Part shown: piece after piece, positions 4,995 to 28,729 of the stretch
How positions within the stretch are numbered: the stretch's first letter is position 1
Layout of the letters: the number at the start of each line of letters is the position of its first letter
Assembly (NCBI GenBank): GCA_000004985.1
Contig: GG738850.1
DNA length: 64,000 nt
Source of the DNA: Naegleria gruberi
Lineage: Eukaryota
Reading direction: 5' to 3' (one strand)
Notes under the pieces: generated by a model
Databases searched by the model: none
Seen by the model: only the letters and a program-made list of their open reading frames with translations
Told to the model about the DNA's origin: nothing
Program-made: the position numbers and the translations under genes

Positions 4995-5049
4995 TAAATA
5001 TCAAATATTCCATTACGCTTTACAATTGCTTTTAGAAACATGAAAAAAA

Positions 5050-6643: not shown

Positions 6644-6644
6644 A

Positions 6645-7007
6645 TTATGGTGTAGTTTTTTGATGTTTTTCAATATTATTTACAATATATTTAATATCAT
6701 TGTTGATGTGGTTGGCCCAATTTTCAACATCTCCCAATTCCTTTACACATTGATTTAACTGTTGGAAAGTTTGAATCCATTGTGTTGTTTGTTTGTTGAA
6801 TTTTTCTACTTGGGCATGAAGATGTTTGGCTTCATTTTCGATCATTTGTTGATTTTGAAAAACTTTGATGACATCACTATTTGTTTGATCGATCAATTCA
6901 TGACTGACCGATTGCAGACTATCCTTGGCTTTGTGCCTCCTCTTGTCATTTTCCTCTCGGACCTTTTGTTGGCGTTGATTGTGTTCCTTGATGAGATGTG
7001 ATAACAT
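6645..7007 (-). CDS. BLOC1S1: BLOC-1 (biogenesis of lysosome-related organelles complex 1) subunit 1 / GCN5L1 homolog, 119 aa
   Basis: Colinear similarity to BLOS1 over the whole length: MLSxLxKEH...KRR...NQ...E.K.L..Q...F.KQT.QWI...KE.GDVENWA. Single exon. Confidence 0.85.
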   Translation of the reverse strand: MLSHLIKEHNQRQQKVREENDKRRHKAKDSLQSVSHELIDQTNSDVIKVFQNQQMIENEAKHLHAQVEKFNKQTTQWIQTFQQLNQCVKELGDVENWANHINNDIKYIVNNIEKHQKTTP

Positions 7008-7101
7008 TTTTTAATATTTTAAATAAAATCTTTTCGGAATAAAACAACACTACGAATAATTAAACAAAAAATTATTGTGAATGAAAATAATTTAGTTTAA
7101 T

Positions 7102-9500: not shown

Positions 9501-10084
9501 TTTTTTTTGATTTTAATGTTTGGTTGGGCAGGGGTTGGTGTGCCATTCAAAAGATTTGCTTCGGATTAATGCTCAAACAGCACACTCCACTTCTTGTGTT
9601 GTGGAGGATTAAGAGAGTCACATTAAAGAATCTTTAACAACTGTGTATATCCTGCAAAAAAATAAAATTTAGTAAATGAGGTGGATATTTTGAAGGTTCA
9701 ATGGTTGTAGGTTAGGAAAATTTTGCTTGTTTACAAAGAGTTGGAACTTGAGTGTTCTGCATATTGAGGTAAATGGTTGTATAAACTATTCAAATTATCA
9801 TTGTGACTATTGAGTCGAATTAAGGTGAATGTACCATTCGAGGGATTTCATATTTGAGATAATAAGGACAATATTGAGCGGCAATTTGTTGGCTTTTGGT
9901 TATTTTTTCTACGATCTATTGGTGCGACGTCGATTTTTTGTCCTTCGCACAAATGATTCACTTAAACAAGACATAAGTATTTATTGTAAAGTATTATCTT
10001 TGCTTGAATAATCTACAGTTTATTAATCACACTAGAATTGAATCCAATTCTTAGTTGGAGGTATGGTCAATCAAGTTATACAAT

Positions 10085-11091
10085 TTACCAACAACATCCA
10101 CTACCTCCTTCACTTTCGTTTGGTTCACTAGTTGAAATATTTACATTATCAGTTGGCTTATTTCTGACTGGTTCAGTACTTTCGAGAAGATTAGTTGTGT
10201 TGAGTATTTGATAGACAACTTCCTCAAATGCCTTATCAACATTTTCTTTTGTTTTGGCTGATGTTTCAATATAGACCATATTATTGGATTTGGCAAAGTT
10301 TTGAGCGTCTTGGAGTGAAACTTTTCTTTCTTCCTTCAAATCAATCTTGTTTCCAATCAATAATTTTACACATTCCTCAAATGTTGAATATAAATCACAT
10401 TCCTTAAGCCAATTCTTAATATTATTAAATGTTTCCTCTCTAGTAACATCATAAACAAGAATTATTCCATGAGCATTTCCTAAATATTTTGATTAAAATA
10501 TAAATCTCAAAATACATACTATAATAACTTGATGTAAGAGTTCCTTAAATTTTGTTAGAATTGATCAGTGAATTTTGGAAGCAAACTTACTAAATCTCTC
10601 TTGACCTAATTCAATTCTTTAGAGAATTCTGTTTCTTATTTATACACTTACCTGCAGTATCAAATATCTTTATCAATTATTTAGAAAAATTCAAATCTAT
10701 TATTTTACCTACAGTCAATTTTACTTTCTTCCTATTTACATTCATAAATTTAACCTTGCTATTTATAAAATCGTCATCATCATATTAAATCCAAATTCAA
10801 TAATTATTCATTAAAAACATACAAATCCACACCAATTGTTGGCGACATTTGTTCTTTAAACTCATCCTCAGTAAATTGTGTAATAATACTACTCTATCGG
10901 AATTAATTATCTTCATCAATCTTTAAAAAAACAAACCTTTCCTGTGGCACTATCACCAACAAGCTATTAAATCCCGAACCGAACCAAACCAAAATAATCG
11001 ATTCATCATCATCATCGTCGTTGCAAATACTCTAATAAATTGGAAAACTCACCACAAGTTTGAAATTATGATCAAAAGCCTTTGAAGTCAT
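10085..11091 (-). CDS. Rab-family small GTPase, at least 8 exons including 15-27 nt micro-exons; C-terminal double-Cys prenylation motif
   Basis: Exons reconstructed by hand: MTSKAFDHNFKLV | LVGDSATGK | SSIITQFTEDEFKEQMSPTIGVDF | KVKFMNVNRKKVKLT | IFDTAG | GQERF | RTLTSSYY | RNAHGIILVYDVT...IGNKIDL...ETSAKT...GCCW. All Rab G1-G5 motifs are present, with canonical GT...AG junctions. Confidence 0.7.
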
Positions 11092-11240
11092 TTTTTTATT
11101 TTTAGATTTCTATTAAGAAACACGTTTGCAGTTTTTGTTTGAAAGTTCTTCCCAGTGTCCAAACAATCAATTGAATAATATTGAAAAGAAATTGAAGAAT
11201 TGAATCGATAGCAATGGTTTATTTACAAAATTTAAAAAAA

Positions 11241-12311
11241 TCAATTCAAATTGCAACCAATTGCCTTGTTTGTTTGCACCTTAATTGAATGTAAAATTGG
11301 AGTTAATTTGGCAGTTAACTTGGATGGAACCTTTCCATTGGCCTTTTTTGATTCATCCATCAATAATACCAAGTCAACTGGAATTGCAACTATTGGAATG
11401 GCACTTTTAATCATCAATCCTGTTAAACTCATAATACCTGTGTGGCCATTAGTCAATCCATCAGATTTATCCAAATCTTGATGCTTGTGGCCTGTCAGAG
11501 ATTCAACAAATTGAAGAACGTTGACATTTCTATTACCAATTTTCATAACTCTACTATCAATGTATGGATCAGTCAACCTTTGTTCATAAATCTTTCTAAT
11601 CATTGCATTTACTGCTTGAGTATCCCTTTGTAAGAGTTCTTGAATGGACTTGGCTGATTTCTTGGCATGTTTCCATTCAGCAATTGATGCAGCAACTGTT
11701 GCTGTTGTTCCCACACCAACACAACCAATACCAGCACCTGAGGCAATTAATGAAACACCAAAAGTGAAAGGAGCAGCTACGATACCACCAAGAATCAAGG
11801 AAGCTCCAACAATATTGGTTTTTGTACCTTTCACTTTGGTCTTTGCTGTACTTTGTTGTTTCTTTTCTAATGATTGGATTAAATTGTCCAGCATTTTAAT
11901 GATTTCCAATCGTTGGACAAGCCACTCATTTGCAGATTGTTCAATGACAGCAAATCCACAATTTGGATTATCAAAATTGGTACTTTCAAATGTTGGGGTT
12001 TGAGGAAGAATTACATTGGTCTGGAAATTTGTTTGTTGACCACCTTTTTCATAGCTACTATTACTGGTTGTGGATTGAATTGGTTTAAAGTTATTGGTTA
12101 GTTGTAATGGTTGGGGAGTTATTGGTTGTTGTACAAATTGAGGATTAGAAGTGATAACTGGAAAATATTGAGCGTTTGGTTGTGGATACATGTATTGAGG
12201 AGGATTAGGTGGGTAAAGTTGATATTCTGGTGGTTGATAATTCACTCCAGGTTCTGTAATGTTTGGTTGAGTAGAGAAATGTGGATATTGAGGAGAAACT
12301 TGTTGATGCAT
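11241..12311 (-). CDS. Hypothetical membrane-hairpin protein with N-terminal P/Q/Y-rich region containing PPxY motifs (PPEY, PPQY)
   Basis: Long ORF. The N-terminus is a low-complexity Q/P/Y region with PY motifs. The centre has a glycine-zipper hydrophobic hairpin, IVGASLILGGIVAAPFTFGVSLIASGAGIGCVGVG, reminiscent of ApoL-like or pore-forming helical hairpins. No confident family assignment. Confidence 0.35.
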   Translation of the reverse strand: MHQQVSPQYPHFSTQPNITEPGVNYQPPEYQLYPPNPPQYMYPQPNAQYFPVITSNPQFVQQPITPQPLQLTNNFKPIQSTTSNSSYEKGGQQTNFQTNVILPQTPTFESTNFDNPNCGFAVIEQSANEWLVQRLEIIKMLDNLIQSLEKKQQSTAKTKVKGTKTNIVGASLILGGIVAAPFTFGVSLIASGAGIGCVGVGTTATVAASIAEWKHAKKSAKSIQELLQRDTQAVNAMIRKIYEQRLTDPYIDSRVMKIGNRNVNVLQFVESLTGHKHQDLDKSDGLTNGHTGIMSLTGLMIKSAIPIVAIPVDLVLLMDESKKANGKVPSKLTAKLTPILHSIKVQTNKAIGCNLN

Positions 12312-12603
12312 TTTGTTTAAATTGTATTGAATAGAAAATAGATCATGAGTTTCTGATTTATTCTTTTCCTCAATTCCTTGTTTTGTTTCGAATTGAGGTA
12401 CACCAATGTCAAATCTATAATTCGAAACCCGACTTCAATTTAGAAGGTTGACTCTCGATTTCAAGGAGAAATAAATTTGAGCGCAAAACAACGACAGCCG
12501 ATATCTCTTTCTAAAACTGCGAACTTCAAATTGTCCACATTTGACTTGCAAGAATCAAATATTGTTTCATCAATGAATGCATGATCATTGCAATTCAGTT
12601 TTA

Positions 12604-13425
12604 TCACAAAATGTTAACAATTTCATATTCAATGCAATTATTTTCTTGTTTTATTTTGTTCATTGTTGAACTAATTGATTTGATATTATGTACATTTGAT
12701 TTTCTTTCTTTACTACCACTAATTATGTCAATAGTTTCAAATTCAGATAATAAACCATGGTAGTTATTTATCTTATCAGTGATTGATTCTTGTTTGATGC
12801 TTTCCACAGTGAATGTTGATTCGTCTTGTTCCGATTCTTCTTCTTGTTCTTCAGAACATTCAGGGAAGCATTCATCAAAGATAGATGATGAAATTGAAAC
12901 ACAACTCAATGGAGTTTCTTCATCATCATCTTCATAGGAATAGACTGAGTAGACATCGGATGAATTATCTTCATCAGATTCTTCGCATTCATCGTATTGT
13001 TCATAAGTAGTAGAACAATCACTATTGTTGTTATCAATCTTTCTTAAACTATCAATGAGCAATTCTCTTCTCATATATTCAGAGTCGAATGAATCACCAA
13101 GATCATTCTTCCAAGACATGATGATATCATCAACTCTTTCAATTTCTTCTTCCATATACCAGAGATCCATTTCTAAGTTGTTTGTTATTAGGAAAGTCCA
13201 AAATTTTCTATGTATATTTGATGATTTTGAACTAGTGTTCGAATATTCTTCTTCATGCAAAAGCCTTGTTATGCTATTTGAGTACAAGTAGACTTGATGT
13301 TGTCTCTTTTTTTTTGATTTGTATCGTTGCTTGAATTTGCAGTGAAACATTTTAAACCTACGCTCTGTTGCATCAATAGCGCGGACGAATGAAATTGTTG
13401 AACGTGCTTTGATGAGCTGCTTCAA
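12604..13425 (-). CDS. Hypothetical acidic (D/E/S-rich) protein
   Basis: 273-aa ORF with ATG at 13425. Strongly acidic C-terminal half and no recognisable domain. May continue in a downstream exon. Confidence 0.3.
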   Translation of the reverse strand: MKQLIKARSTISFVRAIDATERRFKMFHCKFKQRYKSKKKRQHQVYLYSNSITRLLHEEEYSNTSSKSSNIHRKFWTFLITNNLEMDLWYMEEEIERVDDIIMSWKNDLGDSFDSEYMRRELLIDSLRKIDNNNSDCSTTYEQYDECEESDEDNSSDVYSVYSYEDDDEETPLSCVSISSSIFDECFPECSEEQEEESEQDESTFTVESIKQESITDKINNYHGLLSEFETIDIISGSKERKSNVHNIKSISSTMNKIKQENNCIEYEIVNIL

Positions 13426-14029
13426 GTCACATCATCAAACCAAGAGCGCAATTTTCTTTGTTCCTTCCGCACTGTATTTTACCTCGTGAGGAAGCGTTGA
13501 TGGCTCACTTGCTACGTGTTTGCTGAGGTGGATGAAACGTTTGAAAAAACACGATCACGTTCTATTAGAGGTCAAATTGATTGTGCTTGCGCAGCAGTAA
13601 AGGACTTTCTCGTTGGATTCTTAGTTGCATTGGCGATGTTATCTTGGTATGGAAAACGTACGATCATGTCTGAGAATCTCAAATTGATAATCGTTTTGAT
13701 ATGATTGAGGTTAAAGTGTAATAATAGTTTGTAAAATGATCCACCTATTTTGATTAGATGAACTAAGAATCAGTTCAATCAAATTGAATATTGTAGATTT
13801 TCAAATCATAAACAGATGGCAACTTTTGATTGAGCATTTTGATTCTGAAATTAAATCACTTCTTTGTTGAAATTTCCAGCTTGTGATTTATTTTCCAATC
13901 TCCAATTTTTTTGAGTTTGGACAAAGATACTCATTGGAAGGTCAATATTCGAAACTCATCTAATGATACAGAAATTCAAAACGGAATAATTCAAATTGTT
14001 GACTATCTTATTACAATTATTTAAAAAAA

Positions 14030-14883
14030 TGTCGCATGCACCACAAGAAGAAACACTTGTGAACACAAGCAGGAAGGCTACAAATTTTCTCTTCCTTACA
14101 GATTACTTGATTGGAGGAGCTTCTCGAGCCATCGGAAGAACATTAACAGCACCAATTGATCGATTCATGATTCTCCTTCATCACCCAGAAAAACCCAAGT
14201 TTCCGCAAGCTTGTTTCTTGTTTTGGAGAGGAAATTTACTCAACATGATCAAATCATTCTTTCCAAATACTGTGGTTTTTAATTTTGCCATCAAGGATTT
14301 GATAAAGAGGCAGAATTATTTACCATTTCAAGCAGTTGATCAGAGAGGATATGGATTTGTGGTGAATCAGTTTGTGAGTGGTGGTTTGGCAGGTGCTTGT
14401 TGTGAATTTGTGAGATTCCCTTTTGATAATATTATGAAATTTAGGGTGGGTCAATTGGGTAGTGGAATGGAAAAGTATTTCGGATTGTTTAAAGGGGCTG
14501 GTATTTCAGTAATGAGCGCAATGGTTTATCGTTCGTTATATTTTGGATTAAATGATTCATTGAGAGAAGTGAATACTTACAGGAACGATTTGGGAGTGAA
14601 AGGAGTCATATCTAAATATGGGATAGCTCAATTAGCATCAGCAAGTGCTTGGATTATGAACAGTCCAATTAGCACCATACATAGAAGAATGATCATGCAA
14701 CAACAATATTCCCCCAATCAATGGCATTATAATTCCTCAATAGATTGTTTCAAAAAAATACTACGAAACGAAGGAATTTCCTCCTTCTTTAGAGGCTTGA
14801 GATTTTCGAACACTATTGGGCCTGCAGTTATTTTGACTCTCTATGATCAAGCCCATTGTTACTTATTTGAACAGGAGAAGTAG
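14030..14883 (+). CDS. Mitochondrial carrier family protein (divergent ADP/ATP-carrier-like)
   Basis: Three-fold repeat with carrier signatures: GGASRAIGRTLTAPIDRFMILLH (Px[DE]xx[KR] motif), GGLAGACCEFVRFPFDNI, and the SAWIMNSPISTIHRRMIMQ repeat. The first real ATG is at 14030 (MSHAPQEE...). Single exon. Confidence 0.65.
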
Positions 14884-15301
14884 TCCATGTTATTGTCTAG
14901 TAAAGGTTGTCTTCCTGATTATACCAAAAAAGTCCACAATAAGGTGAAATGTATTGAGGAGTTAAGGTACAGTTCGAAGAGTTTGTTCAACTTGAAGGAT
15001 TAGTAAACAATTCTAGGATTTGCCATGTTGAGTAAGTGTCCAAAGAATTCCAGCCAGAGTTGTATTATTATCTAGTTTTTGTGTCAAACCTATAGTTCCA
15101 TTTCCATAGCTAGGTTCTACATCAGGTACAAGTACTCCAATAACTGAACTTCAAAATTGCTGAATACTGTTAACGAAATTTAGTTAAATTGTTACTATAA
15201 TCAGATTTAATCTGGATTGTCTCTGATTATGTAGTTTTTGAAAAGAAGACAAGTTATTGAACTTTCAGAAAGACTGGTTTAAATAAACCAGTCCAATAAA
15301 A

Positions 15302-16282
15302 ATGCCAAGAACACTTTTCTCTGCACTTCCACACGAAACACTTCAACACATATTATCTTTTGGAGTTTGCAATCTATCTTCTTGCAAAAGAGAGGAACTT
15401 TATTCATGTATTCGATTTGTTTCCAATTTTCAATCTTTAAACAAGCAACTTTCTTCCGAAATGCAACGCTATTTTAATGAATTTTGGTGGCTAGTAGTAA
15501 AGAAAACAGTTGGATATAATTTATTATTAGAAACTGAGTATAATCAATTAAAAGAGAAAATGATTGAAATTGGAGAATTAAAAAGGAAGGCATTAATTGC
15601 TAAATATATTACAAGAAATGCTCGTACAAGATATTCAGATGTGAGATTGTTAGTATTTGGCTATAAAAAAGTTGGAAAATCAGCAATTACCATTCAATTC
15701 TTACAAGGAGTTTTCATATCAGAATATTCATCATTATGTGACGATTCCTATCGTAAACCATATGAAGTAGATGGCCATTACGGATTACTAGATATTCTAG
15801 ATTGCTCTACAGATGCTGATCCATCATCTGCATTGAGGGATGGACATGTAATTTCTGGAAATAGTTATTTAATTGTTTGGGATGTTTCCAATACAGAAAA
15901 CTTATTGGAAAAGACTGACACCTTGTTAAGCCAATTATTCGAACTCAGATTCATTAGGAATACTCAGGTTATGAATAACTTTCCAATTGTATTTGCTTTG
16001 AATAAGACGGATTTATTAGAGGATTCCAATGGAAGTAATGTTATAATTGAGAAATGCAGAAATGCAATTAATGAAGTTATCAGAAAGAAAGAGTTGAATA
16101 ATTGTGCAATTATTGAATGTAGTGCTAAAAAAGGAGAAAATATACATTCTTTATTTGAAGAGTGTGTGAGAAGAGAGAGACTAATGACTGACCAAGATCA
16201 TTTATCTTTATTGAAGAATGTTTTGACACATGATTCGAAATGCATTCACCGAAGCACTAACAAATCATGCACCCTTCATTGA
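15302..16282 (+). CDS. F-box-like N-terminal domain fused to a Ras-like small GTPase domain
   Basis: ATG at 15302. N-terminal LFSALPHETLQHILSFGVCNLSSC...LYSCIRFV fits the F-box consensus. GTPase motifs: G1 GYKKVGKS, G4 NKTD, G5 CSAKKG. The switch II region is atypical. Confidence 0.55.
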   Translation: MPRTLFSALPHETLQHILSFGVCNLSSCKREELYSCIRFVSNFQSLNKQLSSEMQRYFNEFWWLVVKKTVGYNLLLETEYNQLKEKMIEIGELKRKALIAKYITRNARTRYSDVRLLVFGYKKVGKSAITIQFLQGVFISEYSSLCDDSYRKPYEVDGHYGLLDILDCSTDADPSSALRDGHVISGNSYLIVWDVSNTENLLEKTDTLLSQLFELRFIRNTQVMNNFPIVFALNKTDLLEDSNGSNVIIEKCRNAINEVIRKKELNNCAIIECSAKKGENIHSLFEECVRRERLMTDQDHLSLLKNVLTHDSKCIHRSTNKSCTLH

Positions 16283-16460
16283 CTTGTACAGAAATAACCT
16301 GTCGTTAACTCATCCTTAATCAATATCAAGATAAGAAAAATCATTGCATCTACCACGACTGTCCAATATTGTGTTTTCAAAATCAAGATTGAATGTTTCA
16401 ACAAGGTATCAATCAACAATCAACATATAAAGTGATTTAGTTGCCTACCACCAAGAAAAA

Positions 16461-17921
16461 ATGTCACAACATCATCACAACAATACTAGACCCAATTTAT
16501 TAGAAAATATTCCTTTGGAAGTTTGGCAGAGTTGTATTTTTGAATATTGGCTCGGACCCATTCATGAAATCAATCAGTGTTTGGATAAATTGAATATTGA
16601 TGAAATTGAAAAGTTTAAAAATGTAATTTATTCAAAGATTATTGATGGATTGGATTTGATGAGTGTGCGGAGTGTTCATAAACTTTGTTATTTGGTTTCT
16701 AGGAGATTTAGAGAATTGTTTATAAAGGAAATGGACGAGTTTTGGTTGAAGGTATCGAATATGTTGGAGATGGCTGTTTATTGGAGAAGGTATGAAACTT
16801 CAAAAGGTGCTACATTAGCACAGGGTGATATTACGGCCATAGATTCTATTCCCTATGTGCAAATGCAAAAATTAATTGAGGCCACTGAAATGAATCTAAA
16901 TAGAGAATATACTGATATTATTGATCCATCCATGTGTAGAGAACACTGGCATAATTCAAATATTAAAAAAAAGAATGATGTAAATACGGAGCTGATGCAT
17001 CAGGAATTTGTAAAGAGATTTGAAAAATTAATCATCTCTCAAGAAAAATACGAAAAGATTAGAAAAGTAACTCAACTCGATAGCTATGATTTGTTTTTAC
17101 ACAAGTCATTTATAATATCATTGGACATGATTTCATATTTCGATAGTGAAAGGTCTAATTCAGGTTATTCTAGTTTTAGCACTGAGACTCAATGTCAATT
17201 ATTCAATAAGGGGCTCTTTTCCTTAAAACCTAACCCTAACTCTCTTGGATTAATTATTTCACATGCAGAAAACTCAGAGGAAGTACTTAACATTGATTCA
17301 AAATTCATAGCTATTTCAATTTCAAACTCTGAATGGGCAGAAAAGCAGTTTACAAACATTCCAAATACTGTACAATATCTATGTCTTGAATTCAATCATC
17401 ACTCCTATTCAGGGTATAAGAGCTTGATAGATAAACGCCTATTTGATGAGAATGATCCTGTATTTCCCAATGTTCGTGATCTAACCATTAGAATCGGATA
17501 TCCTGAAGATGATGACTATTTCCTCCACAATTTAGTCATTGAAAAGAATATTCTTTCTGGAATAACAAGGACGAGATTTCCAAAATTGATAAGAATTTCA
17601 ATTTGTGGCTTTGGATCAATGGAATCTCTGTTAGATTGTGAAATTTTGAGCCAATTACCTTATGTGGAAATTATTCAATTCTCTCATGGATATGATTACG
17701 AATTGACTCGTCATTGGTCAGAAAGAAAAGTTCATGAATTAGTAACAAGACATCAAGATTCATTGATTCATCATTTGGTAGTTCATGCATGTATTAGTAG
17801 AATCAATAATGATGCTGATTATGGTTCAATTAAGGAATATTACAATCTCAGTAAGCCAAAGTTTGTGGCTTCCATTTCTCATTCCTCATTCAATGAATAT
17901 TACGAAAATTGCTTCGAATAA
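16461..17921 (+). CDS. F-box domain protein, hypothetical
   Basis: ATG at 16461. N-terminal LENIPLEVWQSCIFEYW...LDKL matches the F-box pattern. The rest has no assignable domain. Confidence 0.45.
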   Translation: MSQHHHNNTRPNLLENIPLEVWQSCIFEYWLGPIHEINQCLDKLNIDEIEKFKNVIYSKIIDGLDLMSVRSVHKLCYLVSRRFRELFIKEMDEFWLKVSNMLEMAVYWRRYETSKGATLAQGDITAIDSIPYVQMQKLIEATEMNLNREYTDIIDPSMCREHWHNSNIKKKNDVNTELMHQEFVKRFEKLIISQEKYEKIRKVTQLDSYDLFLHKSFIISLDMISYFDSERSNSGYSSFSTETQCQLFNKGLFSLKPNPNSLGLIISHAENSEEVLNIDSKFIAISISNSEWAEKQFTNIPNTVQYLCLEFNHHSYSGYKSLIDKRLFDENDPVFPNVRDLTIRIGYPEDDDYFLHNLVIEKNILSGITRTRFPKLIRISICGFGSMESLLDCEILSQLPYVEIIQFSHGYDYELTRHWSERKVHELVTRHQDSLIHHLVVHACISRINNDADYGSIKEYYNLSKPKFVASISHSSFNEYYENCFE

Positions 17922-18146
17922 ATTAAGTGGCTTGATTAGAATAGTAAAAACTCATATATTTGTATCAGTAAACAATGGTATCCCAATTTTCAATTTTTTG
18001 TTATCCTTCACAAATTAGTAAATTGTGTAATTTTTAATTAAAAAAAATTATCGCTTCACCACCCACTCGCATGATTCTTCATCAATTAGTGTAATTCGGA
18101 ATCAAATAATCTTCACACAAAATTATCATAATCATCGGGTGTAAAA

Positions 18147-21100
18147 ATGGAGCGAACATTATCATCGACAAATTGGAATAGAAAATTTAATTGTTCCGAA
18201 CAACGACAACGATCATCAATTCATATTGTAAATTATTTAATAGTGATAATTATTAGTTTTATTCTCATTAGTCATGGAATTAATTCAGTGATGGGAAAGA
18301 TTAGATATTTTGATACAAATAGTTTATTTGAACAAAATTATGTTCACTCAACGACATCAACAAGTGCTTCTGATGATGATGATACGGATTATTCGGCCCT
18401 ATTTTCAGATACATCACCACAACTTTCACTATTTAATATTCACAAGATTATTTCAGCGAGATTTGTCTTTTCAAAATTTAACGAGTTTATTTATTTACCA
18501 TCGAAATCTAATTCTACAATGGTGTTTTACTTTTTGACAGTTCTTAAAGATGGATTTGTCAAAATTGATTGTGATGGTGTTATTAACACAAAGGATTCAA
18601 CAATTTCAAGTACACTTGTAGTTGGAAAATATAATTTGGAAGAAGAAAAAGTTGTTTGGGCTGCCAAGCAAGAAATTCAATACTTTTTCGGTAAACCATT
18701 TGCATACGTAACAGAAAAAGATGAGATTATTATCAGTTGTAATATCAAAGATGATCAAGGTATTTTCTCAAAAAAGTTCTTTTCAGTGAATGGTGTATCA
18801 ACAAAACAACCTTCATTCGTCAACAAGAATACTGCACGAGAAGTCAACATTGTCATGGAAGGTAGTATTGATCGATTTTCTACTATTGGTAATCAAAGTG
18901 AAGGGTTTTTAGTGTTTGGTGCTAAAAATTTGAGAAAAACAAACTCTCTTTACGATTCTAAAAAGGAGACTTTGCATTTAGAAACATCTGTTATGGCTTC
19001 TTTTTATGCTGATGGATCACCTAGATGGAATGTGAAATTAGGTATGTGTTTAGTTTCATTTTTATATTCATAATACTGATCCAAGTTTATGGAAATATTG
19101 AGTTTTTTGAGCTTCTTTCAGTTAAAGTAGTTAGTTTATCAAATAACACTATACCCATTGTTGCTTGCTTTAATTATCTTGGAAGTGGCAGCCTAAAAAC
19201 TTTTGAGAGCCTTCAGGATACCTTTGTAGCACAAACAGATTCAGGATTCGAAAATACTAATTTCAGACTTTTTTCAAAGTACTTTTCAGCTGGAGTTTAT
19301 AGTATTTCTGAAACAGGGGTGTTTTCAGAACTATTTTCATTAAGAGCTTATCCTACAGGTGATTCAACAAGTGCCAACATTCTTGTTAAAGGGTTTTACT
19401 ATGACAAGGACAAGAAAATCTACATTTTATTAATTTATATGAAAGGATATCTTACTTTTTCTAAAACCAGTCATGGAGGATCCAATATGGAAGGAAATAT
19501 AATTTACACATCTACCAACAGAACTGGAGATTATATTCTTGTGAAATATACTGAGGGAGGTACTCCAGTATGCGTTCCTACATCATACATTGGTGATGAT
19601 CCTATTGTAACTACAAATTATTTTATCAATAAGAGAGTTTCTATTGAATCCTACAATAGTTCAAAGCTGCATTTGGAAGTGATAGATATTGAAACAGGAA
19701 CTATCAGGGATAATTTGGCAATTGACATTCAATCCGAAGACCCGTATGGCATTCAGTACGAATTATTTTATGAAAAGAGAAGATATTTAATTGTAAGAGG
19801 AACAACTCAAAATAATGGAACAATATTAATTAATAACAAGTTTTATGTAAAGCCATCAAAGGGTCAGTCAGAATTGGTATTTGTTCTGTACTTGAATACT
19901 CACCCAGAATATGGTAAACGTGAATTGGAATGTGATCAACAACTCAAATGCAGAGCGGTAAGTTTGAATTTTCAATCATTTTTAATTGTTCGATTAGAAT
20001 GCAAATGACAAGATTTGTCAAGCACATGGTATTTGTAATATGGAACAAAAATGTGAATGTGATGAATTCTATATGGGAGATTTTTGTGAAACATATTATA
20101 GAAATACTTTTATAGCAGTTATGGCAACTGTAGGAGTCATATTGATTACTCTGACAGGAAGTGTTTTAACAGGCATCGGAATGTATGCTTACAGAACAAT
20201 AGCTAAACGTCTAAAGCGTTTGCAGAGCAAGGTTAAGGCTGAACAAGAATTGGAACAAAAATTATTGGAATTTGTTGGACTTAATATTAACGAAACTACG
20301 TTTAATTTCAAAACATGGCTCATTCCATTCGAACAATTAACAATTGACAGAGAAATTGCTAGCTCTAATGGAAGAACAATTTTCCAAGGCTCATGGAAAG
20401 GAACATCTGTTGCCATTAAGAAGGTTAGACTAGAAGATTCCTTTGATTACCATGAGGATACTAAGGAATTGAACCTGGATAAAACATTGGAAAGAGAAGC
20501 AGCCATTTTGAGTAGAGTTAGACATCCTAATATTTTGAGATTCTGGGGTTTGGCATTTACTCAAACTGAACAATTTTTAGTGAGTGAGTTATTTACCTTG
20601 AGTATGGATCAAATTATTGATGAGGCAAAAAGAGGAGATCTCTACATTCCAATCCTTTGTAAACTTCAAATTCTACACGATATTGCATGTTCAATGACCT
20701 ATTTACATGAATTTGATCCTCCAATTCTTCACAGAAATTTAAAACCATCCAATATTATGGTAAGTTTTCAGGAAATTTTATTGATTTTCCTTACAATTTC
20801 AAGTTGAGTGAAGACGTCAGATATGGAAAAATACTTTCTGCTGTAAAGCCAAAAATCGCTGACTTTGGATTGTCTACACACTTGAGAGAAGATAATGTTC
20901 TTACGATGCAAATCGGTAATGTTCTATACTCAGATCCTCTCATCTTTAAGGGTGAAAGATATTCTGAAAAGTGTGATGTTTACAGTTTCTCAATGATAAT
21001 GTACGAAATGTTTTTTGAAACAGAACCATACAAAACTTCAGATAAGGTTGGAGAAATTAAGGAAAATTATAATCAATACTCAGTTCTTCCAAACAAGATA

Positions 21101-21343
21101 TCTGAAGGGTACAGACCAAAGATTCCTTTCACAAAAACTCTTGAATCGATTGGTGATTGGATGGAATCTAATTTAGAGTTAATCAATGAACGAATTACAG
21201 ATCCAGAAAATTTAGCAAAATGCATCCAATCCTATTCTGAACTAATGAAGAAATGTTGGTCTGGTGATCAAGATGAAAGACCTTCTTTCCGTGCCATCCA
21301 AGTTTCTATCCAGCAAATTATCAAAGCTTTGGAAATTAAATAA
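18147..21343 (+). CDS. Receptor-like TKL-type protein (pseudo)kinase: signal/anchor, large ectodomain, EGF-like Cys motif, TM helix, kinase domain; 4 exons (18147-19041, 19122-19957, 19998-20759, 20804-21343)
   Basis: Introns 19042-19121 (GTATGT ... CAG), 19958-19997 (GTAAGT, 40 nt) and 20760-20803 (GTAAGT, 44 nt); phases verified. EGF-like CQAHGICNMEQKCECDEFYMGDFCE. TM helix FIAVMATVGVILITLTGSVLTGIGMYAY. Kinase motifs VAIKKV and IADFGLS are present, but the catalytic loop reads HRNLKPSN (Asn replaces the catalytic Asp) and the Gly-loop is degenerate. Confidence 0.65.
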
Positions 21344-21655: not shown

Positions 21656-24166
21656 ATGCAGGCATTGTTGAAAAGGAAGAAAGTTGCCAAGTTTAATTTT
21701 AAAATAACAATTCTCCACTTGATGAAATTACCAAAGAGTGGAGTTATATTGTATATAACATGGAAGAGAGGAAAGAAACATAAAGGAGAAACAAAAAAAG
21801 CCTTTGCCAAAGATAAAACAGCATCATGGGAAGAAGAAATTGAATTTAAAGGAACATTGTTTAAAAATTCTAAAGGAAAATATAAGAAGAAGTTTTTGGA
21901 ATTACATCTTCACCAAGTAGGAGATAAAAAGAAGAAGAGTGAGATTGGACACTTATCTATTAATTTAGCAGATTATTCATCTTTGCAAATGGAAAGTCGA
22001 TCCGAAACTAGAACATTTACTGTACCTATGTGGGGAGGATCATCAAATGGTGAATTGAAAATCAAGATTGAAAGTAATCCAAGATTGAAATCCGATCCAA
22101 ATGATTTAACAACATTTACTGATAATACCACCATGACTGATGCTACTGAAGATAGTGAAGAAGATAATCAAGGAGGTTTTAGATCGAAAGGATTTAGAGA
22201 ATATGGTGAGGATGATGATGATCATTTCGGAGAGCATGATGATGAAGAAATTGTAGAAAATGAAGACTTTGATATGGAAGATGATGATAATAGATTTAAT
22301 CGTGAAGATGATGATGTAAGAAGTGGTGGAAGTAATGACCAAGCTAGTGATAGGGAGGATTTCAATAATTCACCTCCTAGAGGTTCTTCTTCAAGAGTGA
22401 CCAGGAGCAGAGATGATTTGAGTGATGGTTTGGATGACGACATGGATGAAGACTTTAATAGTGGAGATGAAGAATTGGATGAAGAACCAGTTGCCAAGAA
22501 ACCAGAACCAAAACCACTTTCAGGTGTTAGTGCCTTTGAAAGAAGAGGTGTTATTGGATCAAGAAATAAGGACAGAAGACGTCAAAATATGAGTTTAACG
22601 AATGAACTTGATTCTGATGCCTTCTTGAAGAATTTGGAAAAAACCAATGAATCAATTCAACAAAGACAGAAGAGAAAAGTCATTGAAGAACCTGTTAAAA
22701 CAAATACTAATAATAATAATGCTTCTGATGATGAAAACAGTATGACTGGAGACGACCAATCAAGTAGCCACAATGAAGAATTGGAAAAAGCCAAGAAGGA
22801 ATTGGAGAAACTTGAAATTAATAGACGAGTAACTGAAGAAAAATTAGCAAAGGCTCAAAAAGAAAACAACGAGAAGAACCTTGTTTTTTATCTAATTACA
22901 GACAAATTACCTGAATATTCACGTGAAATTCCAGTTTCTGCTCCATTGATTTATAAGGCTCTCAAACATTGGGATTCTTTCAAGCCAGAAAATAATTCAT
23001 TAATTTCCAAGATTATTACTGCCCTGACTTCTGTCATTAGAAGTAATGACACTAAATTTGATACATTATGCTATTGGTTATCTGTCATGTTAAGTTTACT
23101 CACCCTTTTACAAAAAGACTTCCCAATTACTCATTCCCACGAACAAGGTGTTCAAGTTGACTTACTCAAGGATTTAGATTTGTCTTCAATCAATGTTGGT
23201 AGTAGAGGTATCCTAGATGATGTTTTGCCATCAAAGGAAACAACTGTTGGATATATTGAAATGTTAGAAGCAGTTGTTAAAACAGTATTAGAATTGGATA
23301 AGGAAAAGGGTATAAGAACAACTAGCATTTCACTTGTTGCTTCAGATAATGGTAATGATGATGACAACTCATTTGCTTTTGAGGGTCCTGTTTCTCAATT
23401 CAAAAAGGATTTATTGGAGTTAATTCATAAGATTTTTGTGATTCTGTACCAAGATGTGATTCGTAAATTACTTCCACTTCTTTTTGAAGGTTTATTTGGT
23501 AAGAATGGGCAACCATCTTCAAATGCTGATGCAAACAAAATTGGAAAAGTACTTGATGAAACATTCAAGCTATTCAAGAATAACTTTATACCAAAGACAT
23601 TCAGAGAACAATTTTTCGGACAAGTATTCTACTTTATTAATTGCTTTGCTTTCAATGCAGTGTATTCACATAAGAGAAATTACTGCAATATGAGTTCTGG
23701 TATTATGTTAAAGATGAGCGTCTCTATATTGGAACTATGGGCTGAAGAAAGAAACTTTGAGTTTTGTACTTCCAAACAATTCACACAAGGAGTTGTTATT
23801 ACAGGAATAGGGATGCTTTTCTTGAGACAAACAGCTGACGTGATGATTACTGCCAAGTCTTCACTTGTTGATAAATCCTCAAGACAATTGGTTTGTCCAT
23901 TGCTTTCTGATACTCAATTGAAAAGAGCTTTGGAAAATTACAAGAAGGACGATTTTGATAATGTTGTTCCTTCATCAGTGCTGAATAATATTCACTCTGA
24001 TAAGAGTAAGCCAAAATATTTATTGAATGGATCCCTTATCTTTAAACCAAACCTCGAGTACCTTTCACAAAATTCCTCATCTCTTAATATTATGAACGAT
24101 GCTATCTTCCAAAACAATATACCTGCACAATTACAGGACGAGGAATTCGATTTCCTCACCAAATAA
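21656..24166 (+). CDS. NT-C2 (N-terminal C2) domain + acidic linker + C-terminal Dilute (DIL, myosin-V cargo-binding-like) domain protein
   Basis: Real ATG at 21656 (the track start at 21650 is TTG). N-terminal KFNFKITILHLMKLPKSG...ITWKRG resembles the EHBP1/EEIG1-type NT-C2 domain. C-terminal region LIYKALKHWDSFKPENNSLISKIITALTSVIRSN...FDTLCYWLSVMLSLLTLLQKDFP resembles a DIL domain. Confidence 0.6.
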   Translation: MQALLKRKKVAKFNFKITILHLMKLPKSGVILYITWKRGKKHKGETKKAFAKDKTASWEEEIEFKGTLFKNSKGKYKKKFLELHLHQVGDKKKKSEIGHLSINLADYSSLQMESRSETRTFTVPMWGGSSNGELKIKIESNPRLKSDPNDLTTFTDNTTMTDATEDSEEDNQGGFRSKGFREYGEDDDDHFGEHDDEEIVENEDFDMEDDDNRFNREDDDVRSGGSNDQASDREDFNNSPPRGSSSRVTRSRDDLSDGLDDDMDEDFNSGDEELDEEPVAKKPEPKPLSGVSAFERRGVIGSRNKDRRRQNMSLTNELDSDAFLKNLEKTNESIQQRQKRKVIEEPVKTNTNNNNASDDENSMTGDDQSSSHNEELEKAKKELEKLEINRRVTEEKLAKAQKENNEKNLVFYLITDKLPEYSREIPVSAPLIYKALKHWDSFKPENNSLISKIITALTSVIRSNDTKFDTLCYWLSVMLSLLTLLQKDFPITHSHEQGVQVDLLKDLDLSSINVGSRGILDDVLPSKETTVGYIEMLEAVVKTVLELDKEKGIRTTSISLVASDNGNDDDNSFAFEGPVSQFKKDLLELIHKIFVILYQDVIRKLLPLLFEGLFGKNGQPSSNADANKIGKVLDETFKLFKNNFIPKTFREQFFGQVFYFINCFAFNAVYSHKRNYCNMSSGIMLKMSVSILELWAEERNFEFCTSKQFTQGVVITGIGMLFLRQTADVMITAKSSLVDKSSRQLVCPLLSDTQLKRALENYKKDDFDNVVPSSVLNNIHSDKSKPKYLLNGSLIFKPNLEYLSQNSSSLNIMNDAIFQNNIPAQLQDEEFDFLTK

Positions 24167-27040: not shown

Positions 27041-28729
27041 ATGGGAACCCCAGATTGGGGTAATGATTTAACACTCAACTATGACACTTGCAATATTATG
27101 TCACTCACACAAAAACAATCAAAAAAAATGAGTAAACGAAATAGACAAGATTTGGAAAATCAATTAATTAATTATTCGGAGGAAAATAATATGGACGAGA
27201 AAGCAAAAAAGGTTTCAATGCAACGACAAGAAATATTTTCAGATGATGTTTGTTTTGAAATAATTTGCATGCTCGATGATTCGTGGTTTATTTTGAATAA
27301 TTGTTCATTGATTTCAAAACAATTCTTTAATGTGATCAAGGAACGTTCAAAACTTGTTATTCAATTTAATCAAAAATTTACAGAAACAAGAATTGAATTA
27401 TTCATGAAAAGTCAATTTATGAATAGTATTGTTCATCTTAAATTTTATAGAAGCTCGCTTGACTCTATAGAACAAGTCAAATTAATAAGTGAAATGAAAC
27501 AATTAAAATTACTTGATATTCGTGGAATTCAAATAGGAGATGAAGGAGCCAAATTTATAAGTGAAATGAAACAATTGAGATCACTTAGTATTTATAACAA
27601 TCAAATTGGTGTAGCAGGAGTCAAATCAATAAGTGAAATGAAACAATTAACATCACTTGCAATTTGTAACAATCGAATTGGTGATGAAGGAGTCAAATTT
27701 ATAAGTGAAATGAAACAATTAACGTCACTTACTATATGTTACAATCAAATTGGTGTTGAAGGAGTAAAATCCATAATTGAAATGAACCAATTAAAATCAC
27801 TTAATATATCTTACAATGAAATTGGAGATGAAGGCGCGAAATCAATATGTGAAATGAAACAATTAACATCACTTAATATATGTGACAATCGAATTGGTGT
27901 AGAAGGAATCAAATCAATATGTGAAATGAAACAATTAACATTACTTAATATATCTAAGAATCAAATTGGTGATGAAGGAGTCAAATTCATAATTGAAATG
28001 AAGCAATTAACGTCACTTGACATATGTTACAATCGAATTGGTGATGAAGGAGCCAAATCCATAAGTGAAATGAAACAATTGAAATCACTTGATATTTATA
28101 ATAATCAAATTAGTGATGAAGGAGTCAAATTTATAAGTGAAATGAAACAATTAACATCACTTGATATTAGTGCAAATGAAATTGGTGTAGAAGGAACCAA
28201 ATCAATATGTGAAATGAAACAATTAACATTACTTAATATATCTAAGAATCAAATTGGTGATGAAGGAGTCAAATTCATAATTGAAATGAAGCAATTAACG
28301 TCACTTGACATATGTTACAATCGAATTGGTGATGAAGGAGCCAAATCCATAAGTGAAATGAAACAATTGAAATCACTTGATATTTATAATAATCAAATTA
28401 GTGATGAAGGAGTCAAATTTATAAGTGAAATGAAACAATTAACATCACTTGATATTAGTGCAAATGAAATTGGCGTTGAAGGAGTCAAATCAATAAGTGA
28501 AATGAAACAATTAACATCACTTAATATTAATAACAATGAAATTGGTGATGAAGGAGCCAAATTTATAAGTGAAATGAAACAATTAACATCACTTAATATA
28601 TGTTACAATCGAATTGGTGTTGAAGGAGTCAAATTAATAGGTGAAATGAAACAATTGAAATCACTTAATATTAATTACCAAAAGACGAAATCTAAGGATT
28701 TGGTATGGATTACAAATGAGACTGCTTAA
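27041..28729 (+). CDS. F-box / RNI-like leucine-rich-repeat protein (about 18 tandem 24-aa LRRs)
   Basis: F-box region IFSDDVCFEIICMLDDSWFILNNCSLISKQFFNVI, followed by 72-nt (24-aa) repeats of consensus SEMKQLTSLDIxxNxIGDEGxKxI. The first ATG, at 27041, may not be the true start. Confidence 0.7.
   Translation: MGTPDWGNDLTLNYDTCNIMSLTQKQSKKMSKRNRQDLENQLINYSEENNMDEKAKKVSMQRQEIFSDDVCFEIICMLDDSWFILNNCSLISKQFFNVIKERSKLVIQFNQKFTETRIELFMKSQFMNSIVHLKFYRSSLDSIEQVKLISEMKQLKLLDIRGIQIGDEGAKFISEMKQLRSLSIYNNQIGVAGVKSISEMKQLTSLAICNNRIGDEGVKFISEMKQLTSLTICYNQIGVEGVKSIIEMNQLKSLNISYNEIGDEGAKSICEMKQLTSLNICDNRIGVEGIKSICEMKQLTLLNISKNQIGDEGVKFIIEMKQLTSLDICYNRIGDEGAKSISEMKQLKSLDIYNNQISDEGVKFISEMKQLTSLDISANEIGVEGTKSICEMKQLTLLNISKNQIGDEGVKFIIEMKQLTSLDICYNRIGDEGAKSISEMKQLKSLDIYNNQISDEGVKFISEMKQLTSLDISANEIGVEGVKSISEMKQLTSLNINNNEIGDEGAKFISEMKQLTSLNICYNRIGVEGVKLIGEMKQLKSLNINYQKTKSKDLVWITNETA
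27890..28470 (+). repeat. Near-perfect 288-bp tandem duplication (4 LRR units, 96 codons) inside the F-box/LRR gene
   Basis: The sequence at about 27913-28200 is repeated identically at 28201-28488 (offset exactly 288 bp). Identity decays only at the flanks. Confidence 0.85.

What the first reader, a model, noticed from the sequence alone, without database searches (positions are those of the whole stretch)
18147..21343. Receptor-like TKL kinase with EGF-like ectodomain and HRD-to-HRN substitution (predicted pseudokinase)
Four exons encode signal or anchor, a roughly 600-aa ectodomain ending in an EGF-like module (CQAHGICNMEQKCECDEFYMGDFCE), one TM helix and a kinase domain. The catalytic loop is HRNLKPSN rather than HRDLKPxN and the Gly-loop is degenerate, while VAIK and DFG are retained. 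That pattern is seen in signalling-competent pseudokinases. Transmembrane receptor kinases with EGF-like ectodomains are uncommon outside animals and plants, and would mark lineage-specific receptor families.
Basis: partly seen in the sequence, partly recalled or inferred. Interest (0 to 1): 0.55.

Follow-up and report, generated by a model that had tools for sequence, protein, structure and literature searches.

The report
Naegleria membrane receptor with dead kinase
This is a real, already annotated Naegleria gruberi gene for a single-pass membrane receptor whose internal kinase domain has lost its catalytic residues yet is strongly conserved, so it is a credible but fairly ordinary receptor pseudokinase confined to Naegleria and its closest relative.

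Summary
The gene is real. The window is Naegleria gruberi NEG-M. With one correction (intron 1 ends at 19085, not 19121), the spliced product is 1022 aa and identical to XP_002681397.1, annotated "serine/threonine protein kinase".

The architecture is confirmed:
- N-terminal signal or anchor
- about 535-aa all-beta ectodomain with no detectable family
- one six-cysteine EGF-like module
- one TM helix
- conserved juxtamembrane segment
- TKL-like kinase domain (nearest solved structures: MLK4, CTR1, MLK1, Roco4, DLK, BRAF, TAK1)

HRN is not a sequencing error. It occurs in all five Naegleria sequences examined, all with a glycine loop lacking GxGxxG. N. fowleri and N. lovaniensis have also lost the catalytic-loop Asn. 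The Willaertia magna ortholog and six more distant heterolobosean relatives keep HRD.

The kinase domain is nevertheless the most constrained part: dN/dS is 0.026 between N. lovaniensis and N. fowleri, against 0.07 for the ectodomain.

Best reading: a functional receptor pseudokinase that lost catalysis on the Naegleria stem and signals non-catalytically. Ligand, partner and localisation are unknown. It is a new member of a known kind and of modest interest.

The parts
18147..19041 (+). Exon 1 (start codon ATG 18147; aa 1-298 plus the first base of codon 299)
   Evidence: ORF; splice model; exact match of the spliced product to XP_002681397.1
19042..19085 (+). Intron 1, corrected (44 nt, GTATGT...CCAAG).
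   Evidence: Ortholog alignments. The 12 restored residues are conserved. L002 has no intron here. The annotated protein matches only this model.
19086..19957 (+). Exon 2
19958..19997 (+). Intron 2 (40 nt, GTAAGT...TTAG)
   Evidence: Required to remove an in-frame stop. A 39-nt intron with a stop sits at the same position in L002, and N. lovaniensis genomic DNA is interrupted by stop codons at the same position.
19998..20759 (+). Exon 3
20760..20803 (+). Intron 3 (44 nt, GTAAGT...CAAG), immediately after the catalytic loop
   Evidence: position conserved in L002 and in N. lovaniensis genomic DNA
20804..21343 (+). Exon 4 with stop codon TAA at 21341-21343
18213..18281 (+). N-terminal hydrophobic signal peptide or signal anchor (aa 23-45, SSIHIVNYLIVIIISFILISHGI), preceded by a basic n-region
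   Evidence: Kyte-Doolittle peak. An equivalent hydrophobic N-terminus is present in the N. lovaniensis, N. fowleri (L003) and W. magna orthologs. Cleavage was not tested.
18297..19945 (+). Orphan all-beta ectodomain (aa 51-585; spans intron 1), with 6 N-glycosylation sequons
19949..20087 (+). EGF-like module (aa 587-619; Cys 587, 596, 602, 608, 610, 619; spans intron 2)
   Evidence: Pfam EGF_2 above the gathering score. All six Cys are conserved in five orthologs. The tail reads CxCx5Gx2C. It matches the EGF repeats of P0033.
20103..20192 (+). Transmembrane helix (aa 625-654), followed by the basic stop-transfer sequence RTIAKRLKRLQSK
   Evidence: Hydropathy. The only internal hydrophobic segment. 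A hydrophobic stretch is present at this position in all orthologs.
20196..20330 (+). Conserved charged juxtamembrane segment (aa 656-700, ...KAEQELEQKLLEF...)
   Evidence: dN/dS 0.024. The motif is shared with Acrasis and environmental relatives.
20331..21322 (+). TKL-like (pseudo)kinase domain (aa 701-1016; spans intron 3)
   Evidence: Pfam; PDB neighbours; conservation and dN/dS
20355..20375 (+). Degenerate glycine-rich loop IASSNGR (no GxGxxG)
   Evidence: Willaertia has GEGIDG; Acrasis and environmental relatives have xEGxxG.
20409..20420 (+). VAIK motif (beta3 Lys730 retained)
20730..20753 (+). Catalytic loop HRNLKPSN. Asn836 (AAT, 20736-20738) replaces the catalytic Asp. Asn841 is retained.
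   Evidence: HRN is present in all Naegleria orthologs; HRD in Willaertia, Acrasis and environmental relatives.
20861..20869 (+). DFG motif retained

Best explanation
This is the N. gruberi gene for XP_002681397.1, a type I single-pass membrane protein. From N- to C-terminus it has:
- a signal peptide or anchor
- an orphan all-beta ectodomain of about 535 aa
- one membrane-proximal EGF-like module
- a TM helix
- a conserved charged juxtamembrane helix
- a cytoplasmic TKL-type kinase domain

The kinase domain is a pseudokinase by the standard sequence definition. The catalytic Asp is replaced by Asn, and both remaining glycine-loop glycines are gone. The beta3 Lys, alphaC Glu and DFG Asp are kept.

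The loss happened on the Naegleria stem after the split from Willaertia, whose ortholog is canonical. The loss then went further in N. fowleri and N. lovaniensis, where the metal-binding Asn is also gone.

The kinase-like domain is the most strongly constrained part of the protein, so it still does something. The most likely role is this: the ectodomain binds an extracellular ligand or surface, and the information is passed on without phosphotransfer. The pseudokinase domain would act as a regulated docking or allosteric partner, or as a phosphorylation substrate through its invariant activation segment, for an active cytoplasmic or membrane kinase. This is how HER3, KSR and plant receptor pseudokinases work.

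Shown here: gene structure, architecture, loss of catalytic residues, phylogenetic timing, purifying selection.
Inferred: topology and surface location, ligand binding, non-catalytic signalling, existence of a partner kinase.
For: - **Gene model:** it is identical to the annotated protein.
- **Orthology:** there are single homologues in N. lovaniensis, N. fowleri, W. magna and two environmental sequences. Upstream microsynteny with N. lovaniensis is conserved.
- **Domains:** Pfam finds kinase and EGF_2. Hydropathy shows two hydrophobic segments, with basic residues after the second.
- **TKL neighbours:** the best PDB matches are TKL kinases. PDB 3p86, a CTR1 entry that itself carries HRN, is the second-best match, while its sister entry 3ppz carries HRD. 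From my own knowledge, 3p86 is the engineered kinase-dead D676N mutant.
- **Motifs:** HRN and a glycine loop without GxGxxG occur in 4/4 full-length Naegleria orthologs and in fragment P0013. HRD and an intact or nearly intact loop occur in Willaertia and six further relatives. N171 is lost in N. fowleri (I) and N. lovaniensis (T).
- **Constraint:** identity between N. gruberi and N. fowleri is 72% in the kinase domain and 51% in the ectodomain. For N. lovaniensis versus N. fowleri, dN/dS is 0.026 in the kinase domain (316 codons, dS 0.65), 0.024 in the juxtamembrane segment and 0.07 in the ectodomain. The activation segment DFGLSTHLREDNVLTMQIG.VLYSDPLIFKGERYSEKCDVYSFS is nearly invariant in Naegleria.
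- **Precedent:** a D166N substitution defines HER3 and the JAK JH2 domains, which signal allosterically (PMC4718504).
Against: - There is no biochemical, expression or localisation data of any kind.
- No partner kinase was identified, and no paralogue shares the ectodomain, unlike HER3 with EGFR and HER2.
- N. gruberi keeps Lys, Glu, Asn171 and DFG. HER3, JAK2 JH2 and KSR2 show that such domains can bind ATP and retain weak activity.
- The ectodomain fold is unresolved, with pLDDT 56-64, so ligand binding is a guess.
- A signal peptide could not be distinguished from an uncleaved anchor.
- Plasma membrane could not be distinguished from endomembrane.
- The paralogue searches are word-indexed and demonstrably lossy. 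They missed P0001 and P0030. A moderately similar active N. gruberi paralogue is therefore not excluded.
Confidence: 0.7

Rival explanations
1. It is a low-activity or atypical but still catalytic receptor kinase. The domain binds ATP through Lys730, Asn841 and Asp863. It performs slow (trans-)autophosphorylation when clustered, as reported for HER3, JAK2 JH2, KSR2 and CASK.
For: N. gruberi and the environmental ortholog L002 retain the beta3 Lys, alphaC Glu, catalytic-loop Asn and DFG. The review PMC4718504 documents weak activity in D166N pseudokinases. Very strong constraint on the whole domain is also what one would expect of an enzyme.
Against: Both surviving glycine-loop glycines (G52 and G55 equivalents) are replaced, with a one-residue deletion relative to Willaertia. 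N. fowleri and N. lovaniensis have additionally lost Asn171 (to I and T) without any relaxation of constraint. This argues that the conserved function does not need metal-ATP chemistry. The same D-to-N change in the closely matching CTR1 kinase is used as a kinase-dead form (PDB 3p86 sequence; its inactivity is from my own knowledge).
Confidence: 0.17
2. It is not a signalling receptor at all. It would be an adhesion, sorting or endomembrane type I protein, in which the former kinase domain serves only as a structural cytoplasmic tail, for example as a cytoskeletal or coat anchor.
For: No ligand, partner or pathway is known. The ectodomain gives only weak beta-propeller-like structural matches, and propellers with EGF modules occur in adhesion and endocytic receptors (integrin alpha and LRP2 appear among the weak hits). 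Localisation is untested.
Against: The nearest relatives (Willaertia, Acrasis, environmental sequences) are canonical TM kinases with the same juxtamembrane motif. The ancestral role was therefore kinase signalling. The activation segment and C-lobe, which are the regulatory and docking surfaces of kinases, are the most conserved parts.
Confidence: 0.1
3. It is an artefact or a decaying gene. HRN would be a sequencing error, or the locus a pseudogene.
For: HRN differs from HRD by a single base (AAT versus GAT). The N. lovaniensis assembly shows two apparent frameshifts in the ectodomain-coding part.
Against: HRN is present in five independent Naegleria sequences from different projects. The reading frame is intact across four exons in N. 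gruberi, N. fowleri (L003) and L002. dN/dS is 0.026-0.07.
Confidence: 0.01

Closest known systems
Willaertia magna KAL9644574.1 (hypothetical protein ABK040_015313), the outgroup ortholog
   Same: Same architecture end to end: signal, homologous ectodomain (37% identity), six-Cys EGF module, TM, juxtamembrane motif, and a kinase domain with the same alphaG-alphaH insertion (52% identity). The APE Glu is already missing.
   Different: It keeps GEGIDG, HRDLKPSN and every other catalytic residue, so it is presumably an active kinase. It has a 20-residue insertion before alphaC.
HER3/ErbB3 (animal receptor pseudokinase) and JAK JH2 domains
   Same: A single-pass receptor with a cysteine-containing ectodomain. 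The catalytic loop is HRN with the Asp replaced by Asn. Lys, Asn171 and DFG are retained in N. gruberi. The domain is functionally constrained. The likely mode of action is allosteric or scaffold (PMC4718504).
   Different: - HER3 is a tyrosine-kinase-group protein (HRNLAARN) with Receptor-L and furin-like domains. This protein is TKL and Ser/Thr-type (HRNLKPSN) with an unrelated ectodomain.
- HER3 lacks the alphaC Glu, which this protein keeps.
- HER3 has active paralogues as partners, and none was found here.
- The resemblance is convergent, not homologous.
MLK / CTR1 / Raf-type TKL kinases (MLK4 4uya, CTR1 3p86/3ppz, MLK1, DLK, ZAK, BRAF, TAK1, Roco4); KSR as the pseudokinase member
   Same: These are the best sequence matches among solved structures, with E values of 1e-24 to 1e-17. 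They share the PPI(L/V)HR(D/N)LK catalytic loop, the RHPNI motif after alphaC and CWxxxxxxRPSF.
   Different: These are cytosolic MAP3K-type kinases without a TM segment or ectodomain. Identity is only about 25-30%. The Naegleria protein has a roughly 30-residue alphaG-alphaH insertion and lacks the APE Glu.
Plant wall-associated kinases (WAK/WAKL)
   Same: The order of parts is convergently the same: a lineage-specific binding domain, membrane-proximal EGF-like module(s), a TM helix and a TKL-group Ser/Thr kinase. Some plant receptor kinases are pseudokinases.
   Different: The kinase is not of the RLK/Pelle-IRAK clade. No RLK or IRAK appears among the best 60 PDB matches, and a plant LRR-RLK scores only 47 bits. 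There is no GUB_WAK domain and no calcium-binding EGF.
Acrasis kona AKO1_008222 / AKO1_015812 / AKO1_006130 and environmental P0040, P0041, P0043 (unnamed heterolobosean receptor-like TKL kinases)
   Same: These are the nearest non-orthologous kinases, at 30-32% identity over the full domain. They share the juxtamembrane motif xAExExxxLL, the YELFFE motif and a single TM. AKO1_008222 also has an EGF-repeat ectodomain.
   Different: All have HRDLKP(S/Q)N, xEGxxG and SPE, so they look catalytically competent. Their ectodomains are unrelated to the Naegleria one.
Entamoeba transmembrane kinases (TMKs)
   Same: They are protist single-pass receptor-like kinases, many of which are predicted pseudokinases (my own knowledge; PATMK is cited in PMC4053784).
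   Different: TMK ectodomains are CXXC-rich repeats, and the family is large. This ectodomain has only 12 Cys, and the gene is single-copy per species.

Membership tests
Eukaryotic protein kinase superfamily (Pfam Pkinase / PK_Tyr_Ser-Thr) | Domain match above the curated gathering score | tested here: met
   Pkinase scores 120.5 bits (cut-off 31.7). PK_Tyr_Ser-Thr scores 106.8 bits (cut-off 23.1).
TKL group | Kinase domain closest to TKL families (MLK, RAF, LRRK, CTR1-like) rather than to other groups | tested here: met
   The top PDB matches are MLK4, CTR1, MLK1, Roco4, DLK, ZAK, BRAF, TAK1 and TNNI3K. Some CAMK members (CDPK1) score almost as well, at 2e-18. The profile hits are named STY/EDR1/MLK/TKL kinases.
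TKL group | Formal classification with group-specific HMMs (Kinomer, Kinannote, KinBase) | not testable with these tools
   No such library was available.
Pseudokinase (sequence definition: lacks at least one of VAIK-Lys, HRD-Asp, DFG-Asp; PMC4718504) | Absence of the HRD catalytic Asp | tested here: met
   Asn836, codon AAT at 20736-20738. It is conserved in all Naegleria orthologs.
Pseudokinase (functional sense) | No phosphotransfer activity | not testable with these tools
   This needs an in vitro kinase assay. The only indirect support is the additional loss of the glycine-loop glycines, and of Asn171 in two species.
EGF-like domain | Six cysteines in EGF spacing, with a Pfam EGF match above the cut-off | tested here: met
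   EGF_2 scores 23.5-24.5 bits against 22.1. The spacing is C-x8-C-x5-C-x5-C-x-C-x8-C. All six Cys are invariant in five orthologs.
Type I single-pass receptor-like kinase | N-terminal signal, one internal TM, kinase on the cytoplasmic side | tested here: inconclusive
   Hydropathy shows exactly two hydrophobic segments. Basic residues follow the TM. There are 6 N-glycosylation sequons in the ectodomain against 1 in the cytoplasmic part. No signal-peptide or topology predictor was available, and there is no experimental localisation.
Plant RLK/Pelle family, including WAK | Kinase domain of the RLK/Pelle-IRAK clade; GUB_WAK domain for WAKs | tested here: not met
   No RLK or IRAK appears in the best 60 PDB matches. 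A plant LRR-RLK (P0004) scores only 47 bits. There is no GUB_WAK hit even at E<=10.
ErbB/HER receptor tyrosine kinases | Tyrosine-kinase catalytic loop HRDLAARN; Receptor-L and furin-like ectodomain modules | tested here: not met
   The loop is HRNLKPSN, which is Ser/Thr-type. No such Pfam domains were found.
Beta-propeller ectodomain (WD40, YVTN, sialidase or integrin-alpha type) | Closed ring of 4-stranded blades; repeat signal or a confident structural match | tested here: inconclusive

The most novel reading that the evidence does not exclude
Naegleria carries a genus-specific cell-surface receptor that was an active receptor kinase in the common ancestor with Willaertia. It has since become an obligate pseudokinase that signals allosterically through a so far unidentified active kinase. 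It would be the first receptor-pseudokinase system I am aware of described in Discoba. It comes with a natural active/inactive ortholog pair and a stepwise record of decay:
- the APE Glu was lost first
- then the HRD Asp and the glycine loop
- then Asn171

Its ectodomain would be a new ligand-binding module. The N. fowleri ortholog would be a lineage-restricted surface protein of the brain-eating amoeba.
Probability: 0.35. Interest if true: 0.5.

Novelty: new member of a known kind. Interest (0 to 1): 0.33.

Why it matters
Receptor pseudokinases are well known in animals (HER3, RTK pseudokinases) and plants, and predicted pseudokinases are catalogued across eukaryotes. The category is therefore not new, and the gene itself is already in GenBank under a generic name.

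What is useful here is the clean evolutionary contrast. An apparently active ortholog in Willaertia sits beside a strongly constrained, progressively de-catalysed ortholog in every Naegleria species sampled. That makes the Willaertia and Naegleria cytoplasmic domains a natural active/inactive pair for asking what a receptor kinase domain is kept for once catalysis is gone.

It also flags a Naegleria/Willaertia-restricted extracellular domain, present in the pathogen N. fowleri, that has no detectable relatives elsewhere.

Finally, it corrects or flags three gene models:
- the N. lovaniensis ortholog, which is over-spliced
- the N. fowleri ortholog, which is N-terminally truncated

Tried and rejected
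- **Paralogue in the window:** none was found by tblastn.
- **Pfam on the ectodomain:** scans at E<=10 on all orthologs found nothing beyond EGF.
- **PDB sequence search:** the ortholog profile hit only the kinase part.
- **AlphaFold2 ectodomain models:** there were two, from the full ectodomain with 7 rows and from a trimmed version with 5 rows. They reached pLDDT 56 and 64.
- **Internal repeats:** hhalign self-comparison found none.
- **Literature by accession:** a search for all ortholog accessions found no paper. Searches on the Naegleria kinome and TKL kinases found no treatment of this gene. A search for the CTR1 D676N mutant found nothing in the library.
- **First dN/dS attempt:** one search was contaminated by tblastn high-scoring pairs running into intron 3 of L003. 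I redid it with each species' own exon-exact codons.
- **Saturated comparisons:** dS between N. gruberi and the other species is saturated (pS about 0.75). Only the N. lovaniensis versus N. fowleri pair is used.
- **Rejected readings:** sequencing error or pseudogene; RLK/Pelle or WAK membership; ErbB membership.
Full report
**Identity of the locus**

The window is AT-rich (about 33% GC) and eukaryotic, with short GT-AG introns. Three products were found by exact look-up as Naegleria gruberi NEG-M proteins:
- window 16461-17918 is XP_002681396.1
- window 21656-24163 is XP_002681398.1
- the spliced product of the finding is XP_002681397.1 / EFC48653.1 / D2V3K2, "serine/threonine protein kinase"

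The gene is therefore already annotated under a generic name. No paper in the searchable library cites any of the ortholog accessions.

**Gene model**

Alignment with orthologs shows that intron 1 must end at 19085, not 19121:
- The 36 nt in between encode YGNIEFFELLSV. This aligns with YDDKDFFEMHNI (N. lovaniensis, N. fowleri), YKNDDVFEMINM (environmental contig L002, which has no intron there) and YVNKEVFDLLSL (Willaertia).
- Only this 1022-aa model matches the database protein exactly.
- The corrected intron (44 nt) also fits the size of introns 2 and 3 (40 and 44 nt).

N. lovaniensis and L002 genomic sequences are interrupted at the same positions as introns 2 and 3. Nothing else of note lies on either strand within the gene. 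Antisense ORFs are at most 75 aa. The flanking genes are 225 bp upstream and about 310 bp downstream.

**Architecture** (numbering of the 1022-aa protein)

| Part | Residues | Notes |
|---|---|---|
| Basic n-region and hydrophobic core | 23-45 | signal peptide or anchor |
| Ectodomain | ~51-585 | 6 N-glycosylation sequons; no Pfam match at E<=10 in any ortholog |
| EGF-like module | 587-619 | Pfam EGF_2 above cut-off; six Cys invariant in five orthologs; tail CxCx5Gx2C |
| TM helix | 625-654 | the only other hydrophobic segment; followed by RTIAKRLKRLQSK |
| Juxtamembrane segment | 656-700 | conserved and charged |
| Kinase domain | 701-1016 | Pkinase 1.1e-34 |

**The ectodomain is an orphan**

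An exhaustive phmmer search of 1.84 billion representative proteins found only five homologues. Those that could be traced are Naegleria or Willaertia sequences or Naegleria-like environmental contigs. One further EGF-only hit was found. A profile search of PDB sequences hit only the kinase part.

**Kinase classification**

The best solved-structure matches are TKL kinases: MLK4, CTR1, MLK1, Roco4, DLK, ZAK, BRAF, TAK1 and TNNI3K (E 1e-24 to 1e-17). No RLK/Pelle or IRAK member is among the best 60, and the catalytic loop is Ser/Thr-type. The protein is therefore TKL-like. It is not a plant-type RLK or WAK and not an ErbB-type RTK. Its resemblance to those receptors in domain order is convergent.

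**Pseudokinase evidence** (motif table)

| Sequence | Glycine loop | Catalytic loop |
|---|---|---|
| N. gruberi | ASSNGR | HRNLKPSN |
| L002 (environmental) | SEQDGK | HRNLKTEN |
| N. lovaniensis | VNTSGK | HRNIKPST |
| N. fowleri | VSTSGK | HRNIKPSI |
| Willaertia magna ortholog | GEGIDG | HRDLKPSN |
| Three Acrasis kona and three environmental relatives | xEGxxG (GEGTFS in P0043) | HRDLKP(S/Q)N |

- A fifth Naegleria fragment, P0013, also reads HRNLKPSN.
- All of these sequences keep the beta3 Lys and DFG. The five orthologs also keep the alphaC Glu in LEREA.
- The six more distant relatives share 30-32% identity with the N. gruberi kinase domain. They also keep the SPE form of the APE motif (STE in P0041).
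- The APE Glu is missing in both Willaertia (MDPI) and Naegleria (SDPL).

The simplest history has three steps:
1. The APE Glu was lost in the Naegleriidae ancestor.
2. D166N and loss of the two remaining glycine-loop glycines followed on the Naegleria stem.
3. The metal-binding Asn171 was then lost in the N. fowleri and N. lovaniensis lineage.

HRN is thus neither a sequencing error nor a private mutation. The second-best PDB match, CTR1 entry 3p86, itself reads HRN, whereas 3ppz reads HRD. To my knowledge 3p86 is the engineered kinase-dead D676N mutant. I could not find that paper in the library.

**The domain is functional**

- Orthology is supported by single hits per species and by upstream microsynteny with N. 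lovaniensis.
- Between N. gruberi and N. fowleri, identity is 51% in the ectodomain but 72% in the kinase domain and 76% in the C-lobe.
- For the unsaturated pair N. lovaniensis and N. fowleri (dS 0.65-0.9), Nei-Gojobori dN/dS by region is:

| Region | dN/dS |
|---|---|
| Kinase domain | 0.026 |
| Juxtamembrane segment | 0.024 |
| Ectodomain | 0.07 |
| EGF module | 0.074 |
| TM helix | 0.19 |

Both species in that pair have lost the catalytic Asp, the glycine loop and Asn171. The constraint is therefore on something other than phosphotransfer. The activation segment and alphaF region are nearly invariant across Naegleria.

**Mechanism**

The best-supported reading (confidence about 0.7 for the whole statement) is a type I receptor whose cytoplasmic pseudokinase acts as a regulated docking or allosteric module, or as a substrate, for an active kinase. 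This is analogous to HER3 and JAK JH2, which carry the same D-to-N change (PMC4718504), and to KSR and plant receptor pseudokinases.

- Shown: anatomy, residue losses, their timing, and constraint.
- Inferred: topology, surface location, ligand binding, and the existence of a partner.

Rivals:
- Residual atypical catalysis (0.17). This is plausible for N. gruberi, which keeps Lys, Glu, Asn and DFG. It is less plausible given the further Asn171 loss in sister species under unchanged constraint.
- A non-signalling adhesion or sorting protein (0.1).
- An artefact or pseudogene (0.01, refuted).

**Context and novelty**

Single-pass TM Ser/Thr/Tyr kinases are common in protists, and about 40% have ectodomains unknown to Pfam (PMC10463195). 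Amoebozoan genomes also encode receptor-like kinases. Acrasis kona AKO1_008222 combines an EGF-repeat ectodomain, a TM and a related kinase. The architecture is therefore not exceptional for a protist.

What is specific here:
- the Naegleriidae-restricted ectodomain
- single-copy status
- the dated conversion from kinase to pseudokinase

I rate this a new member of a known kind, with interest of about 0.33.

**Caveats**

- The word-indexed homology searches are lossy. They failed to return known orthologs P0001 and P0030. Absence of an N. gruberi kinase-domain paralogue is therefore not proven.
- No signal-peptide or topology predictor, transcript data or biochemical data were available.

Noticed in passing
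L001 10214-11716 (N. lovaniensis PYSW02000014.1): The annotated N. lovaniensis ortholog (C9374_001885, 973 aa) lacks two ectodomain segments that all other orthologs have. The DNA does encode them (…RFDSNYNHTDNGFVVYGAKSIRKTNSLYDSTKENLHLESSVMAT…), but there are two apparent frameshifts. The annotation seems to have spliced around assembly indels or real lesions.
   Followed up: partly
L003 1869-2837 (N. fowleri Logan contig SRR29240419_9871): The annotated N. fowleri ortholog XP_044569366.1 starts at MDWWNNY. The contig has an in-frame upstream Met with a signal-like LSIIIIFLCAIILI segment, so the public model looks N-terminally truncated.
   Followed up: partly
window 9250-18150 versus L001 7645-10214: Microsynteny with N. 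lovaniensis holds upstream: window 2753-9250 is collinear with L001 1-7645. Between that block and the kinase gene, N. gruberi has about 9 kb carrying other genes. N. lovaniensis, N. fowleri and L002 have a UVB_sens_prot gene there instead.
   Followed up: partly
window 11241-12311 (-): A 356-aa ORF has a Pfam Apolipoprotein L (ApoL) match above the gathering score (6.1e-08; 32.9 bits against 25.9). This is an unusual family to see in a heterolobosean.
   Followed up: no
P0039 (Acrasis kona AKO1_008222), P0038, P0040, P0041: Heterolobosean and environmental single-pass receptor-like TKL kinases share a juxtamembrane motif (xAExExxxLL), a YELFFE motif and, in P0040 and P0041, a similar alphaG-alphaH insertion. 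P0039 has an ectodomain made only of EGF-like repeats. This looks like an undescribed heterolobosean receptor-kinase clade.
   Followed up: partly
window 39584-39654 (+): tRNA-Gly (GCC) gene.
   Followed up: no
window 27041-28729 (+) and 21656-24166 (+): The first is a 562-aa protein made almost entirely of LRR_6-type leucine-rich repeats. The second, immediately downstream of the finding, is an NT-C2 + DIL domain protein, XP_002681398.1.
   Followed up: no
window 16461-17921 (+): The upstream neighbour NAEGRDRAFT_63392 (486 aa) has no Pfam match and sits alone in its 90%-identity cluster. It appears to be an orphan gene.
   Followed up: no
P0033 (1514 aa, source unknown): A protein with NHL-like repeats, at least 9 tandem EGF-like repeats of the same CNGHGIC…C.C..GY.G..C type and a C-terminal TM, but no kinase. 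It was the only non-orthologous hit to the ectodomain query, and it matched through the EGF module only.
   Followed up: no
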